Below the pieces are notes generated by a model. The model was not told where the DNA came from. It saw nothing but the letters and a program-made list of their open reading frames with translations, and did no database searches. DNA of 64,000 nt from a virus. Within the stretch, counting starts at the first letter, position 1. The number at the start of each line of letters is the position of its first letter. The stretch is from positions 18,853 through 82,852 of IMG/VR virus record IMGVR_UViG_3300036820_000011; one strand, given 5' to 3'. Shown here piece after piece: positions 44,489-46,966 of the stretch. The position numbers and the translations under genes are program-made.

Positions 44489-44615
44489 GTTGTGCCCTCT
44501 AGATTCCTGTCGCCCCACGACGGATGTCCTGACCGGGACACAATAACGGAGCACAGGCGGCTGTCCAGCAGGCCCGGCCCTGGCGAATTCAGCAACCAAC
44601 GGGGATGACAGATCG

Positions 44616-45308
44616 TCAGATCTCGTACCGGCCATCCTTGTTGCGCAGGTTCGACCGACGCCAGGCGTCGTCCCGGAACGGCTCGGAGACGGTCTCACCC
44701 CGGTACTCGACCCGCACTCCCGCACCCGCCCTGCCATAGGTGCCGGGAGCGTCCCAGGGCGGTGCCACACCGTCCCGGACAGCGGGGACGACCGCCTCCC
44801 CCTCGACCAGCTTCGCCAGTGCAGCGGCCTGCCGGACGACGAAGTGGCCCGGCTCGGTCCCTGCGAGGGCCTTGAAGGCGAGCCAGAGTCTGGCGGCGGT
44901 GTCACCGATGTAGACCGGTATGTAGCCGGTATGGTCGCCCCAGGCCCGTGCCTGTGCCACAGCGTCGAACGACCGGCCGTCGAAGTCGTCCCGCAGGGAC
45001 ACCCAGCGGACCCCGAGCCGGACCGCCTCGGCCGCCGGGTCGACTCCCCAGGACTGCCAGGTCTGCGCCCGGATGTTGTCCACCACCACGTCGTACCGGC
45101 CCGGTTCCAGGTCTGCAACATCCCGGGCATGCCGGAAGGTCACCGACTTGTCCCAGTTGAGCCAGTCCCACAGGAGGCTGCCGTCGGCGAGTTCCTGCAC
45201 CGGGTCGGGCCGACCGCTGACCCATTTGTCGACCGTGTGGCCCTGCTCCGCCAGGATCATCCCACAGTAGGCGGGAGCCAGGTACACACCGAGTTCCAGG
45301 ATATTCAC
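44616..45308 (-). CDS. CoA-transferase family III (CaiB/BaiF-like), compact
   Basis: ILELG.YLA..YCG.ILAE.G..V.K, DP, W.N..KSV, DVVVDNIR, D.VAQA, IGD. Confidence 0.8.
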   Translation of the reverse strand: MNILELGVYLAPAYCGMILAEQGHTVDKWVSGRPDPVQELADGSLLWDWLNWDKSVTFRHARDVADLEPGRYDVVVDNIRAQTWQSWGVDPAAEAVRLGVRWVSLRDDFDGRSFDAVAQARAWGDHTGYIPVYIGDTAARLWLAFKALAGTEPGHFVVRQAAALAKLVEGEAVVPAVRDGVAPPWDAPGTYGRAGAGVRVEYRGETVSEPFRDDAWRRSNLRNKDGRYEI

Positions 45309-46387
45309 GCTTCCGCCTTGGGTGCGATGTACTCGAACGACCTGGTCCCCAGCCGCCGGGCGGCCGTCTGGGGCCGGTTCATGGGGGTCCTAAGTCGGTC
45401 GGACCCAGGCGTGGTGTCCCGCCACCTGGGCGACGCCTGGTAGTAGTGGATCAGCGCAGGATGGGACGTGACCGCCCGGAACCGGTATTCCTGATCCCAG
45501 AGGTACTGGCCCAGCCAGTCATTCATCCGGCCGCCGATGCCCAGGCCCTGGTAATCGGGCAGCACGACCAGCCGGTGATTCATCTTGATGTTGCGGGTGT
45601 GAGCATGCGGGAAGTGCCGGTAGGAGTCGAAGGCCACCAGATCGTCTCCGATGAACCCGCCGAAGCAGACCGCCGCCGTGGCCAGATCACCGCTCAAATA
45701 ATGATGATCTTTAAAGAGGGGCCAGACGGAACGATCGACCTGGTGGACGCGGAGGTCCAGTGCTGGCCGGGCTGGAACCGACCCCCAGGTGAGCGTATCC
45801 GTGGCGACCTCGTAGACCCAGTCCGGCTGCAGCCACTCGGCGATGTCGTAGTGGCAGGTCACAGCGACAAACCGGCGTCCACTGCGCCGTACGGACTTCT
45901 GGACGGTGTGCGAGGCGACCTTGGCGACCTGGCGGTCCACGACCGAGGTGAACTCGTCCACCACGGTCAGGCCCGGCGACTCGGCCAGGGAGCGGGCGAT
46001 GTCCGCCCGAAACTGCTCGCCGTTGGACAGGGTCCGGTACGGGCGGAGCCACACCGGCACCGAGCCGAGACCGACCGCCCCGAGCAGGCCCGTGATTTCC
46101 TTGATGCCCATCCCGGCCGGGAAGTCGTCCACCAGGGAGCGATCGGGGGACCAGCGGTGACCGTGGCTGTAGGCGTCCGGCCACAGGGCCCTAGCGACGG
46201 ACGACTTGCCGGAGCCGGACGGGCCGACCACCATGCCGACCGACCAGTCCTTCTCCTCGACCGGGAGGTGGACGTCCCAGGAGTTGGACGCCTTCTCCTC
46301 GACGGAGACATCCATCAGGGAGCTGATCTGCGCCAGCCGCGAGGTCGCCTGGACCGGTGTGCTGACCTCGACCCTCAGCTCAGGCAC
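45305..46387 (-). CDS. ABC-type ATPase fused to GNAT acyltransferase
   Basis: GPSGSGKS, LSNGEQFR, VVDEF, TCH; HHYL and RLVVLPDYQGLGIG. Confidence 0.85.
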   Translation of the reverse strand: MPELRVEVSTPVQATSRLAQISSLMDVSVEEKASNSWDVHLPVEEKDWSVGMVVGPSGSGKSSVARALWPDAYSHGHRWSPDRSLVDDFPAGMGIKEITGLLGAVGLGSVPVWLRPYRTLSNGEQFRADIARSLAESPGLTVVDEFTSVVDRQVAKVASHTVQKSVRRSGRRFVAVTCHYDIAEWLQPDWVYEVATDTLTWGSVPARPALDLRVHQVDRSVWPLFKDHHYLSGDLATAAVCFGGFIGDDLVAFDSYRHFPHAHTRNIKMNHRLVVLPDYQGLGIGGRMNDWLGQYLWDQEYRFRAVTSHPALIHYYQASPRWRDTTPGSDRLRTPMNRPQTAARRLGTRSFEYIAPKAEA

Positions 46388-46396
46388 GGGGGCACC

Positions 46397-46966
46397 TCAC
46401 GTGATCAGCGCCTTGACGTCCAGGCCCTCGGCCGTGAACCGCTCCAGCAGGGACGTCTGCTCGGCCTCGTCCGCGCAGTGGACCACCAGGGCCCATGCCT
46501 CCTGGATGGCCTCGGTGTCGGCGTCCCCCGCCTCCGGCATGACCTCGTCATGGCCGAGCAGCTTTACCAGGTCGGCGTCGGTGTAGCCGGTGCCGTACAG
46601 GAGTGCGCCCTCGGACCCGGCGTCGTTCTCCGCCGCCTCGGTGAGCAGGGCGACCAGGGCCTGTTCGTCGTACTCGCCCAGGTCTGCGGTGCGGTTCGCG
46701 GCCAGCAGGATCTTCACCGCCCTGGCGTCGTCCACGTCCACATACACCACGTCGATGGTGTCCCACTCCAGGTTCCGCGCCGCCCGCAGGGTGTGGTTCC
46801 CGGACAGGACGTGGCCCGTGCTGCGCTGGACCACGATCGGGGCGAACAGGCCGTTCGCCCGCAGCGACTCCTGGATGGCCCGCACGTCACCCCGCCGGGC
46901 GTTCCTCGGATGGAGGGTCACCGAGCCGATCGGCACCCGTTCCACCTTGTTGACCAAAGATCCCAT
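46397..46966 (-). CDS. ParB/Srx-like domain protein
   Basis: HPRNARRGDV.AI.ESL...G...PIVV...VLSGNH...AA, LAANRT.DL. Confidence 0.85.
   Translation of the reverse strand: MGSLVNKVERVPIGSVTLHPRNARRGDVRAIQESLRANGLFAPIVVQRSTGHVLSGNHTLRAARNLEWDTIDVVYVDVDDARAVKILLAANRTADLGEYDEQALVALLTEAAENDAGSEGALLYGTGYTDADLVKLLGHDEVMPEAGDADTEAIQEAWALVVHCADEAEQTSLLERFTAEGLDVKALIT

What the first reader, a model, noticed from the sequence alone, without database searches (positions are those of the whole stretch)
44616..46966. ParB-like + ABC-ATPase/GNAT + CoA-transferase III cassette: candidate acyl-CoA-dependent phage DNA-modification system
Seen: three tightly packed co-oriented genes (9-nt gap, then a 4-nt overlap). 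They encode a ParB/Srx domain; an ABC ATPase without a membrane partner fused to a GNAT (HHYL and RLVVLPDYQGLGIG); and a compact CaiB/BaiF-like enzyme that keeps a GD motif where the catalytic Asp is expected. Known: ParB-like domains often accompany phage DNA-modification genes, Mu Mom is a GNAT-fold DNA modifier with an HY motif, and family III CoA-transferases generate acyl-CoAs. Inference: the CoA-transferase makes a non-acetyl acyl-CoA that the GNAT transfers to DNA or to a protein, giving an uncharacterised anti-restriction modification.
Basis: partly seen in the sequence, partly recalled or inferred. Interest (0 to 1): 0.85.

Follow-up and report, generated by a model that had tools for sequence, protein, structure and literature searches.

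The report
Phage acylation cassette with mini CoA-transferase
An actinobacterial phage carries a widespread but never-tested gene pair thought to put acyl marks on phage DNA, joined to a stripped-down CoA-transferase that most likely prepares an amino-acid-type donor for it, so the chemistry can now be tested.

Summary
Three co-oriented minus-strand genes (9-nt gap, then a GTGA overlap) encode a ParB/Srx protein, an ABC-ATPase::GNAT fusion and a 230-aa protein. That protein has the family III CoA-transferase fold, and its invariant Asp136 aligns with the catalytic Asp169 of CaiB.

The ParB + ABC-GNAT pair is not new. It is a very large phage family (phrog_11143) already predicted in print to acylate a DNA nucleobase, and it has never been tested.

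The mini CoA-transferase sits beside ABC-GNAT in 29 of 29 evaluable viral loci, and an aspartate decarboxylase (PanD) lies there too in 25 of them. This 82.9-kb phage record has no PanD, one of at least three independent losses, yet the transferase stays under purifying selection.

A related chromosomal clade lies between a glutamate-decarboxylase homologue and a gamma-aminobutyraldehyde-dehydrogenase homologue. One phage locus has a family I CoA-transferase in the same position. Both point to an omega-amino-acyl-CoA donor (beta-alanyl or GABA-type).

A DNA target and anti-restriction function remain inference. Kinship with Mom is not supported, and Mom is now known to use Gly-tRNA.

This scan found the same module on other DNA before (e1-5849362, e1-5935648, e1-5935657).

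Verdict: new variant of a known, uncharacterised kind.

The parts
46397..46966 (-). ParB/Srx N-terminal-domain protein (189 aa), the predicted partner or activator of the acyltransferase
   Evidence: PF02195 scores 30.1 bits, above the 26.3 cut-off. phrog_723 matches at E 4e-40. The same domain type matches the N-termini of DNA methyltransferase models: phrog_498 and PADLOC MTase_II at E 9e-12. A ParB gene is detectable upstream of ABC-GNAT in 56 of 80 viral loci.
45758..46387 (-). ABC-type ATPase domain (residues 1-210) of the 360-aa fusion protein
   Evidence: Walker A GPSGSGKS, signature LSNGE, Walker B VVDEF and H-loop CH179 are all invariant in 20 of 20 sequences. VIA-align gives Z 15.8, rmsd 2.8 over 182 residues to ABC nucleotide-binding domains for model residues 1-210. 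ABC_tran scores 31.2 bits.
45320..45757 (-). GNAT acyltransferase domain (residues 211-356) of the same protein, with HHY and the Q-x-x-G-x-G acyl-CoA motif
   Evidence: VIA-align gives Z 14.5 (1y9k), 13.9 (RimI, 5isv) and 13.5 (PA4794 with AcCoA, 3pgp) for model residues 210-356. Acetyltransf_1 scores 20.9 bits against a 20.7 cut-off. The whole protein matches phrog_11143 at E 8e-104.
44616..45308 (-). Compact (230 aa) family III CoA-transferase-like protein, the predicted omega-amino-acid:CoA transferase that supplies the acyl donor
   Evidence: Foldseek top hits are all family III enzymes (Rv3272 E 7.6e-7, Mct, BbsEF, Frc, CaiB; 73 hits at E<=0.001). The family comprises 238 clusters and 30 representatives at E<=1e-30. 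It is adjacent to ABC-GNAT in 29 of 29 evaluable viral loci.
44901..44903 (-). Codon of Asp136, the predicted catalytic (acyl-anhydride-forming) aspartate
   Evidence: It aligns with CaiB Asp169 and the equivalent Asp of E. coli Frc and YfdE. PDB titles name the D169A (CaiB) and Asp169 (Frc) mutants. It is invariant in 20 of 20 homologues and in all 25 loci compared.
45305..45308 (-). GTGA stop/start overlap joining ABC-GNAT to the CoA-transferase (translational coupling)
   Evidence: Read directly from the DNA.

Best explanation
This is a phage nucleic-acid acylation cassette.

The core pair is ParB plus an ABC-ATPase::GNAT fusion. It is the widespread, published-but-untested module predicted to acylate a nucleobase of phage DNA. 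In that model ATP binding dimerises the ABC heads on DNA, the ParB-like protein helps or licenses action on double-stranded DNA, and the GNAT transfers an acyl group from an acyl-CoA to an exocyclic amine.

The third gene is an accessory donor-supply enzyme. It is a minimal family III CoA-transferase that moves CoA from a host acyl-CoA onto an omega-amino acid. Beta-alanine is the likely substrate in most relatives, which carry their own PanD. The product, an omega-amino-acyl-CoA, is used by the GNAT.

This phage has lost PanD, so it must take the amino acid (beta-alanine or GABA) from the host.

Shown here: gene order, domains, folds, the catalytic Asp, co-occurrence, purifying selection.
Inferred: the substrate class, the hand-over to the GNAT, DNA as the target, and protection from host nucleases as the benefit.
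For: 1. Unit. A 9-nt gap and a GTGA overlap link the genes. The closest relative, L004, has the same order.

2. Core pair. The fusion matches phrog_11143 over its full length at E 8e-104. It occurs in 71 phage records and in at least 7376 protein clusters. [quoted passage not shown]

3. Link to DNA. This type of ParB domain matches the N-termini of DNA methyltransferase models. A phage ParB has been shown by experiment to activate a DNA-modifying dioxygenase on dsDNA (PMC13229309 abstract and passages). ASCH genes are the commonest named neighbour of ABC-GNAT: 7 of 109 neighbour ORFs.

4. Acyl-CoA donor. The GNAT keeps Q280-G281-x-G283-x-G, and its nearest structures are CoA-using GNATs.

5. 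The CoA-transferase looks active. It has the family III fold, Asp136 matches CaiB D169, and dN/dS is 0.27 against L004, equal to ABC-GNAT at 0.28.

6. Coupling. The transferase is adjacent to ABC-GNAT in 29 of 29 evaluable viral loci: 28 upstream and 1 downstream (L014). PanD is present in 25 of the 29.

7. Independent support for the substrate class.
- Six of 12 bacterial-genome loci place the compact transferase between a glutamate-decarboxylase homologue (PDB GadA/B, E 5e-77) and a gamma-aminobutyraldehyde-dehydrogenase homologue (E 9e-136).
- One phage locus (L068) has a family I CoA-transferase (PF01144, E 2e-34) overlapping the ABC-GNAT stop.
- phiE255 has a formyltransferase in that position. 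That would fit a free amine on the adduct.

8. PanD loss. The 82,852-bp record, estimated 91% complete, has no PF02261 match. One search scanned 45 ORFs outside, mostly non-structural, and returned no decarboxylase family at all. At least 3 independent losses are forced by supported branches. Of 73 columns conserved in PanD-linked copies, 63 are unchanged in all five PanD-less copies.
Against: - No experiment exists for any member. The acceptor (DNA, RNA, protein or small molecule) is unknown.
- The GNAT's nearest solved folds are small-molecule and protein acetyltransferases (IAA acetyltransferase, RimI, glyphosate acetyltransferase).
- The only DNA-acylating GNAT that has been studied, Mom, uses Gly-tRNA rather than CoA. 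It is not detectably related beyond the fold.
- The window protein misses Pfam's CoA_transf_3 threshold.
- The protein lacks roughly 170 residues of a normal family III enzyme. Its C-terminal 70 residues are modelled poorly (pLDDT below 50 in four stretches), so catalytic competence is not assured.
- The transferase is not confined to the module: only 4 of 12 bacterial-genome loci have ABC-GNAT nearby.
- Most ABC-GNAT genes have no CoA-transferase. It is present in 12 of the 80 best viral loci and in 2 of 71 phage records, both the same phage. The core therefore works with ordinary cellular donors in most phages.
- In this phage the cassette is about 10 kb from the terminase, not beside it.
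Confidence: 0.45

Rival explanations
1. The same cassette and the same donor supply, but the acceptor is a protein. The target could be a host or phage DNA-bound protein, ParB itself, RNA polymerase or a ribosomal protein. This would be a host-takeover or regulatory acylation, not a DNA mark.
For: The best GNAT structural neighbours include RimI, a ribosomal-protein acetyltransferase (Z 13.9), and other protein or small-molecule GNATs. PMC7824862 passages describe phage GNATs that acetylate RNA polymerase. There is no significant similarity to Mom.
Against: ParB partners and ASCH neighbours are hallmarks of nucleic-acid-directed systems. An ABC ATPase head is not needed for ordinary protein acetylation. 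The published prediction favours a nucleobase.
Confidence: 0.22
2. The acceptor is RNA. This would be an ATP-driven N-acylation of a base in tRNA or rRNA, analogous to TmcA, which joins an ATPase to a GNAT to make N4-acetylcytidine.
For: A PMC13219725 passage cites TmcA as a GNAT that acylates the aromatic amine of cytosine in tRNA using acetyl-CoA. The ATPase-plus-GNAT logic is shared. ASCH neighbours would fit, since E. coli YqfB hydrolyses N4-acetyl-2'-deoxycytidine (PMC8618960 passages). That YqfB is an ASCH protein is recalled, not from a call.
Against: The ATPase here is an ABC head, not a helicase, and no tRNA-binding domain is seen. The ParB partner points to DNA.
Confidence: 0.1
3. 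The CoA-transferase (with PanD where present) is an auxiliary metabolic gene for beta-alanine and CoA metabolism. It merely travels with the module and does not feed the GNAT.
For: The same compact transferase works in a purely metabolic-looking chromosomal operon without ABC-GNAT in 6 of 12 genome loci. PanD is a CoA-pathway enzyme (established biochemistry).
Against: It is adjacent on the same strand in 29 of 29 evaluable viral loci, often with overlapping stop and start. It is retained under purifying selection after PanD loss. A different CoA-transferase superfamily was recruited independently to the same position.
Confidence: 0.12
4. ParB plus the ABC ATPase act in DNA partition, condensation or packaging. 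The GNAT and transferase would be regulatory add-ons and no nucleic-acid modification would occur.
For: ParB and ABC (SMC-like) ATPases are classic DNA-handling partners. In many phages the pair lies just before the terminase genes: neighbour ORFs with terminase hits, Gordonia phages genes 1-2, MismyG.
Against: The GNAT catalytic and CoA motifs are invariant. Donor-supply enzymes co-evolve with the pair. The ABC domain is of the compact transporter-NBD type with no coiled coil. In this phage the cassette is not next to the terminase.
Confidence: 0.05

Closest known systems
Phage 'GNAT coupled with an ABC ATPase' system, predicted to acylate a DNA nucleobase. It is cited in Iyer et al., Viruses 2021 (PMC7824862) to their reference 136. 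I recall that reference as Iyer, Zhang, Burroughs and Aravind, NAR 2013, which I could not read. phrog_11143.
   Same: Same fusion protein (full-length phrog_11143 match, E 8e-104). Same ParB partner. Same phage setting.
   Different: Here the pair is joined by a translationally coupled compact CoA-transferase. I found no mention of this in print. The 2013 paper and its supplements were not available to me and may list such neighbours.
Phage Mu Mom (PF25680), a GNAT-fold enzyme that modifies adenine N6 in dsDNA
   Same: GNAT fold acting on a nucleobase amine. In a non-significant hhalign alignment, W222, H229 and Y230 of the phage protein fall on Mom W48, H58 and Y59. Those residues are reported as important for Mom activity (PMC13219725 passage).
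   Different: No significant sequence relation: E 0.47 and E 0.1, and no PF25680 hit. Mom uses Gly-tRNA(Gly) and works alone. This protein keeps the acyl-CoA Q-x-x-G-x-G motif, has an ABC ATPase head, and has ParB and CoA-transferase partners.
Family III CoA-transferases (CaiB, Frc/YfdW, YfdE, Rv3272, BbsEF, Mct; PF02515)
   Same: Same fold over the N-terminal Rossmann-like part (Foldseek E 8e-7 to 4e-4). The catalytic Asp and the AQA motif align.
   Different: It has 230 aa instead of roughly 350-430. Full-length enzymes match only about the first 150 residues. The Gly-rich loop region of Frc has no counterpart in alignment A2. The window protein is below Pfam's threshold. Activity and oligomeric state are unknown.
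ParB-dependent phage thymine dioxygenases (5mYOX176 with ParB176; PMC13229309)
   Same: A short phage ParB-like protein without an obvious DNA-binding domain is encoded beside a post-replicative DNA-modifying enzyme and is needed for activity on dsDNA.
   Different: The enzyme class differs (Fe/2-oxoglutarate dioxygenase against ABC-GNAT). No test of ParB dependence exists for ABC-GNAT.
TmcA-type ATP-dependent cytidine N4-acetyltransferase
   Same: An NTPase joined to a GNAT that acylates an aromatic exocyclic amine of a base with an acyl-CoA (PMC13219725 passage).
   Different: That TmcA's ATPase is a helicase-type domain and its substrate is tRNA is recalled. No homology test was run here.
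Actinobacterial operon found here: glutamate-decarboxylase homologue, compact CoA-transferase, gamma-aminobutyraldehyde-dehydrogenase homologue
   Same: It has the same compact transferase family, 57-62% identical. These copies form one clade nested among the phage copies (SH-aLRT 100). Here too the transferase is paired with an amino-acid decarboxylase.
   Different: No ParB or ABC-GNAT lies within 6 kb. The decarboxylase is PLP-dependent rather than pyruvoyl PanD. The setting is chromosomal and probably metabolic.

Membership tests
ParB + ABC-ATPase::GNAT phage module (phrog_11143; predicted DNA-nucleobase acylation system) | One polypeptide with an N-terminal ABC ATPase (Walker A, signature, Walker B, H-loop) and a C-terminal GNAT | tested here: met
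   Pfam ABC_tran and Acetyltransf_1 are above their cut-offs. The motifs are invariant in 20 of 20 sequences. Both folds are recovered. The phrog_11143 match is full length at E 8e-104.
ParB + ABC-ATPase::GNAT phage module (phrog_11143; predicted DNA-nucleobase acylation system) | A ParB/Srx-domain gene directly beside it on the same strand | tested here: met
   There is a 9-nt gap. PF02195 is above its cut-off. ParB is found upstream in 56 of 80 viral loci by tblastn.
ParB + ABC-ATPase::GNAT phage module (phrog_11143; predicted DNA-nucleobase acylation system) | It acylates a DNA base | not testable with these tools
   This is only a published prediction (PMC7824862 passage). I found no experiment.
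Family III CoA-transferase (PF02515) | Sequence match above Pfam's gathering score | tested here: not met
   The window protein scores 16.2 bits against 23.3. Most homologues carry a precomputed PF02515 hit, and 7 of 7 chromosomal relatives match at E<=0.001.
Family III CoA-transferase (PF02515) | Family III fold | tested here: met
   Foldseek against PDB gives 73 hits at E<=0.001, and every listed top hit is a family III transferase or racemase. TM-score by query is 0.44-0.58. The Atlas structure row is BbsE-like at TM 0.69.
Family III CoA-transferase (PF02515) | Catalytic aspartate at the start of the active-site helix | tested here: met
   Asp136 aligns with CaiB D169 and the equivalent Asp of E. 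coli Frc and YfdE. It is invariant.
Family III CoA-transferase (PF02515) | Full two-domain chain of about 350-430 aa forming an interlocked dimer | tested here: not met
   The chain is 230 aa. Full-length relatives match only query residues 1 to about 150.
Mom family (PF25680) | Sequence or profile similarity to Mom | tested here: not met
   There is no PF25680 hit at E<=1. hhalign against Mu Mom gives E 0.47. Against a 22-sequence Mom profile it gives E 0.1, probability 0.57%.
Mom family (PF25680) | Structural similarity of the GNAT domain to the Mom crystal structure | tested here: inconclusive
   Mom is not among the 50 rows of the VIA-align search, which ABC domains dominate.
ParB/Srx superfamily (PF02195) | ParB N-terminal domain above Pfam's threshold | tested here: met
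   30.1 bits against 26.3, residues 20-89.

The most novel reading that the evidence does not exclude
Phage DNA carries a previously unseen class of cationic marks: omega-amino-acyl groups (beta-alanyl or gamma-aminobutyryl) on exocyclic base amines. They would be written after replication by an ATP-driven ABC-GNAT enzyme with a ParB activator. The donor would be an acyl-CoA made by a phage-encoded 230-aa minimal CoA-transferase. This would be the first CoA-thioester-dependent acylation of DNA bases and the first phage pathway that builds its own acyl-CoA donor.
Probability: 0.3. Interest if true: 0.85.

Novelty: new variant of a known kind. Interest (0 to 1): 0.6.

Why it matters
The ParB + ABC-GNAT pair is one of the largest phage gene families with a published functional prediction and no experiment. 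The family has at least 7376 protein clusters.

The accessory enzymes narrow the unknown chemistry to a concrete, measurable hypothesis. The adduct would be +71 Da (beta-alanyl) or +85 Da (GABA-type) on a nucleoside.

A cultured phage, Jace, carries the full four-gene version.

If the hypothesis holds, it adds a new branch of DNA hypermodification chemistry that depends on acyl-CoA, in contrast with the tRNA-dependent Mom. It would give a second case of ParB-assisted DNA modification. It would also define a minimal omega-amino-acid CoA-transferase of possible use in biocatalysis and DNA labelling.

If the acceptor proves to be a protein or RNA, the family's published annotation would need revision.

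Tried and rejected
1. Mom kinship. hhalign of the ABC-GNAT alignment against Mu Mom and against a 22-sequence Mom profile was not significant. A phmmer search of the GNAT part alone against PDB sequences found nothing at E<=10. I therefore do not call the GNAT Mom-like.

2. Sequence route to the catalytic Asp. hhalign of the transferase alignment against CaiB alone aligned only 29 N-terminal columns. The HMM search against PDB sequences reached only E 0.069. The Asp assignment rests on the MAFFT alignment with three E. coli enzymes.

3. Defence-system reading. PADLOC gave only a ParB-domain match to an MTase model, weak ABC matches (mad3, mad8) and nothing for the transferase. No defence system is claimed.

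4. A hidden substitute for PanD in this phage. The whole record has no PF02261 match. One search scanned 45 further ORFs, mostly non-structural, and returned 18 families, none a decarboxylase. There is no homologue of the chromosomal PLP decarboxylase or aldehyde dehydrogenase in the window or any viral locus.

5. Substrate switch after PanD loss. Ten of 73 conserved columns differ in some PanD-less copy. Two of them (positions 53 and 223) change in both the window/L004 lineage and L010. The sample is too small to claim a specificity change.

7. Literature. I found no paper linking a CoA-transferase or PanD to ParB/GNAT phage modules. The 2013 NAR paper and the 2020 ABC-ATPase classification paper were not held. 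I did not ask for supplementary files. These unseen texts may already mention such neighbours.

8. Terminator scan. None was found between the genes or after the cassette. One promoter-like site was found downstream, which is weak evidence only.


Full report
WHAT IS THERE

The window is bases 18853-82852 of an 82,852-bp IMG/VR virus record with an estimated completeness of 91%. GC content is about 68%. A WhiB gene and actinobacterial relatives of its genes point to an actinobacterial phage.

The finding covers three minus-strand ORFs:
- 46397-46966, 189 aa
- 45305-46387, 360 aa
- 44616-45308, 230 aa

All three have the third-position GC bias of real genes. A 9-nt gap separates the first two. 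A GTGA stop/start overlap joins the last two.

Upstream lies a PrimPol/D5 primase-helicase gene followed by four small ORFs without family matches. Downstream, after a 127-nt spacer with one promoter-like site, lies a secreted Rpf-NlpC/P60 gene. The large terminase is about 10 kb further on.

THE CORE PAIR

Gene 1 is a ParB/Srx N-terminal-domain protein: PF02195 above threshold and phrog_723 at E 4e-40. Its domain also matches the N-termini of DNA methyltransferase models, phrog_498 and PADLOC MTase_II.

Gene 2 is an ABC ATPase fused to a GNAT.
- Walker A, the LSNGE signature, Walker B with the catalytic Glu, and the H-loop are invariant in 20 of 20 homologues. So are HHY and the Q-G-x-G-x-G acyl-CoA motif.
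- The AlphaFold model has mean pLDDT 81.6.
- Residues 1-210 superpose on ABC nucleotide-binding domains (Z 15.8). Residues 210-356 superpose on ordinary GNATs (1y9k Z 14.5, RimI Z 13.9, PA4794 with AcCoA Z 13.5).
- The whole protein matches phrog_11143 ('unknown function') end to end at E 8e-104.

The family is very large and broad. It has at least 7376 clusters at 90% identity in a capped search. It occurs in 71 phage records from Gordonia, Streptococcus, Lactococcus, Burkholderia, Porphyromonas, Aeromonas and others. In the 80 best viral loci a ParB gene is detectable upstream in 56.

The pair is not new. A passage in Iyer et al. [quoted passage not shown] I recall the cited source as the 2013 NAR paper, but neither it nor the 2020 ABC-ATPase classification was held. 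I found no experimental test.

THE THIRD GENE

Pfam gives only a sub-threshold CoA_transf_3 hit on residues 2-92. NCBIfam and PHROGs give nothing.

The protein belongs to a well-populated compact family. There are 238 clusters at E<=0.001, with the best 120 hits spanning 208-251 aa and almost all near 230 aa. In an exhaustive search 30 representatives reach E<=1e-30. Scores then drop sharply to ordinary 350-800-aa family III enzymes, which match only about the first 150 residues.

The model has mean pLDDT 71. It is high for residues 1-110 and poor for much of 115-135 and 162-203. Foldseek finds only family III CoA-transferases and racemases at the top: Rv3272 at E 7.6e-7, then Mct, BbsEF, Frc/YfdW, YfdE and CaiB, with 73 hits at E<=0.001. 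The ESM Atlas look-up agrees.

In a MAFFT alignment with E. coli CaiB, Frc and YfdE, the invariant Asp136 (motif Y-x-G-D-T) falls on CaiB Asp169 and the equivalent Asp of Frc and YfdE. The F-D-x-x-A-Q-A motif falls on their A-Q-A. PDB entry titles name D169 as the residue mutated in CaiB and Frc.

The protein is nevertheless a stripped-down form that lacks about 170 residues of the usual chain.

The public gene call begins at Met17. Residues 1-16 are conserved and include invariant E5, G7, Y9 and G16. The GTG start that overlaps the upstream stop is therefore the better call.

DOES THE TRANSFERASE BELONG TO THE MODULE?

Viral contigs. A scan found 31 loci with the compact transferase. Two are cut at the contig edge. 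In the other 29 an ABC-GNAT gene lies directly beside it on the same strand, 28 upstream and one (L014) downstream. ParB is detectable in 26 of the 29. A PanD aspartate decarboxylase lies in the cassette in 25, next to the transferase. PanD identity was checked on phage Jace gp87 (PF02261, E 2e-33). Several of these loci are near-copies of each other (L012, L013, L015, L016, L017 and L020; L027 and L028; L029 and L030), so there are roughly 22 independent lineages.

Seen from the other side, the transferase is present in 12 of the 80 best ABC-GNAT viral loci, all 12 with PanD. Among 71 phage records it is present in 2, which are two accessions of the same phage, Jace.

The transferase is thus an accessory of a minority of modules, but within viruses it is always with the module.

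Bacterial genomes. The result is different and needs telling in full. Of 12 loci, 4 have ABC-GNAT nearby (2 with PanD). In one of the four a LAGLIDADG-like ORF lies in between. Six loci have no ParB, ABC-GNAT or PanD within 6 kb, and two have unclear context.

The six share a conserved three-gene arrangement:
- A PLP-dependent decarboxylase. Its best PDB relatives are glutamate decarboxylases GadA/B, E 5e-77.
- The compact transferase.
- An aldehyde dehydrogenase. Among its best PDB relatives is gamma-aminobutyraldehyde dehydrogenase at E 9e-136, third after two entries titled 'putative aldehyde dehydrogenase' and 'putative betaine aldehyde dehydrogenase'.

These chromosomal copies form one clade (SH-aLRT 100) nested inside a supported clade of phage-module copies that includes the window. 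The tree has no outgroup, so the direction of transfer is not proven.

WHAT THE NEIGHBOURS SAY ABOUT CHEMISTRY

The compact transferase is paired with an amino-acid decarboxylase of one fold in phages. That enzyme is pyruvoyl PanD, whose product is beta-alanine by established biochemistry. In actinobacterial chromosomes it is paired with a decarboxylase of another fold, a PLP-dependent Gad-like enzyme whose expected product is GABA. There it also sits beside a homologue of a second enzyme that in known cases forms GABA.

The simplest reading is that the family activates omega-amino acids to their CoA thioesters.

Other genes occupy the same position next to ABC-GNAT in other phages:
- A family I CoA-transferase (PF01144, E 2e-34) overlaps the ABC-GNAT stop in locus L068.
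- A formyltransferase (PF00551) follows it in Burkholderia phage phiE255. That could act on a free amine.
- ASCH domains are the commonest named neighbour, 7 of 109 neighbour ORFs scanned from 66 loci. Several terminase genes also appear.

Independent recruitment of a second CoA-transferase superfamily is the strongest single argument that the GNAT draws on a special acyl-CoA.

On ASCH: E. coli YqfB hydrolyses N4-acetyl-2'-deoxycytidine (PMC8618960 passages). That YqfB is an ASCH protein, and that ASCH was proposed as a reader of modified bases, is recalled and comes from no call.

THIS PHAGE LACKS PanD

The whole record has no PF02261 match. One search scanned 45 ORFs outside, mostly non-structural; the structural region was not scanned in full. 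It found DNA polymerase A, an SNF2 helicase, a PD-(D/E)XK nuclease, WhiB, DUF932, two GT2 glycosyltransferases and an epimerase, but no decarboxylase.

I built a tree of 26 transferase sequences: the window plus 25 loci. I left out the near-copies L013-L017, L020, L028 and L030, and the partial L033. On this tree the five PanD-less copies need four changes, and supported branches force at least three. The window and L004 form one PanD-less pair (100/97) next to the PanD-bearing L007 (98/93).

Between the window and L004, dN/dS is 0.27 for the transferase, 0.28 for ABC-GNAT and 0.61 for ParB. Of 73 columns conserved in 20 PanD-linked copies, 63 are unchanged in all five PanD-less copies, including D115, Q119, A120 and D136.

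The transferase therefore stays functional without a phage PanD. The phage presumably uses host beta-alanine or GABA; this is inference.

HOW IT MOST LIKELY WORKS

Shown: the three genes form a coupled unit, and the ATPase, GNAT and transferase catalytic motifs are intact and conserved.

Inferred, in order of decreasing support:
1. The transferase makes an omega-amino-acyl-CoA from a host acyl-CoA and an omega-amino acid.
2. The GNAT uses it as donor.
3. The acceptor is an exocyclic amine of a base in phage dsDNA. ATP-driven dimerisation of the ABC heads and the ParB partner give access to the duplex.
4. The mark shields DNA from host nucleases.

Step 3 has two supports. One is the published prediction. 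[quoted passage not shown]

Against step 3: the only DNA-acylating GNAT that has been characterised, Mom, works alone and takes glycine from Gly-tRNA(Gly) (PMC13219725). It also shows no significant relation to this GNAT. In the non-significant alignment, W222, H229 and Y230 do fall on Mom W48, H58 and Y59, which that paper reports as important. This is a lead, not evidence.

COMPARISON AND NOVELTY

The core is a typical member of a known, uncharacterised kind. I did not find the compact-transferase add-on in print. Earlier agents of this scan described it on other DNA, usually with PanD.

- The PanD-less state as a repeated, selected condition.
- The family I CoA-transferase at the same position in another phage.
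- The chromosomal operon of Gad-like decarboxylase, transferase and aminobutyraldehyde-dehydrogenase homologue, which points to omega-amino acids.
- The residue-level match of Asp136 to CaiB Asp169.
- The negative Mom test, in the light of the tRNA-dependent mechanism of Mom.

I rate it a new variant of a known kind, with interest 0.6. The joint mechanism gets a confidence of 0.45. My rough estimates for the parts are 0.85 for the three genes forming a functional unit, 0.55 for donor supply by the transferase, and 0.45-0.5 for DNA as the acceptor.

Noticed in passing
window 44616-45308 (-), residues 1-16: The public gene call for the transferase (P0001, 214 aa) starts at Met17. The first 16 residues are conserved across the family, so the GTG start at 45308 is the better call.
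   Followed up: yes
L116, L117, L118, L120, L122, L123 (actinobacterial genome contigs), about 4.5-8.2 kb in each locus: A conserved chromosomal three-gene arrangement: a glutamate-decarboxylase homologue, the compact CoA-transferase and a gamma-aminobutyraldehyde-dehydrogenase homologue. It has no phage genes around it and may be an uncharacterised GABA-CoA pathway.
   Followed up: partly
L068:4708-5274 (+), IMG/VR contig, GC 45%: A family I CoA-transferase (PF01144, E 2e-34) overlaps the stop of an ABC-GNAT gene. A different CoA-transferase superfamily sits in the same position as the compact family III enzyme.
   Followed up: partly
protein P0364 (404 aa, from the representative search): The first 180 residues are the ABC ATPase part, up to the H-loop. 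They join directly to the compact transferase at its residue 5, with no GNAT. It may be a deletion product or an assembly chimera.
   Followed up: partly
L124:5016-5987 (+), Hyphomicrobium MAG: A 323-aa ORF lies between ABC-GNAT and the transferase. Its only PDB match is an engineered single-chain protein (scV3V2, E 1e-5). I recall that protein as derived from a LAGLIDADG homing endonuclease, so this may be a homing-endonuclease insertion.
   Followed up: no
L003 (Burkholderia phage phiE255) 3956-5688: The ABC-GNAT gene gp29 is followed by a formyltransferase, gp30 (PF00551). Both lie just after the tail-fibre genes of this Mu-like phage. No ParB is annotated beside them.
   Followed up: partly
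L115 (first 18.9 kb of the same phage record): Among the ORFs scanned, two match GT2 glycosyltransferase (one of them is L115:102-725) and one matches NAD-dependent epimerase/dehydratase. The tally does not say where the other two lie. They may modify a glycan of the virion or the host surface.
   Followed up: no
window 44540-44567 (-): One sigma-70-like promoter match (TGGACA, 16 nt, TATTGT) lies in the 127-nt spacer between the cassette and the Rpf-NlpC/P60 gene. It suggests the cassette ends as a transcription unit there.
   Followed up: no
window 44616-45308 (-), residues 53 and 223: Two positions conserved in PanD-linked transferases (G53, H223) are changed in both the window/L004 lineage and the separate PanD-less locus L010. 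This could hint at altered substrate use, but the sample is too small to judge.
   Followed up: partly
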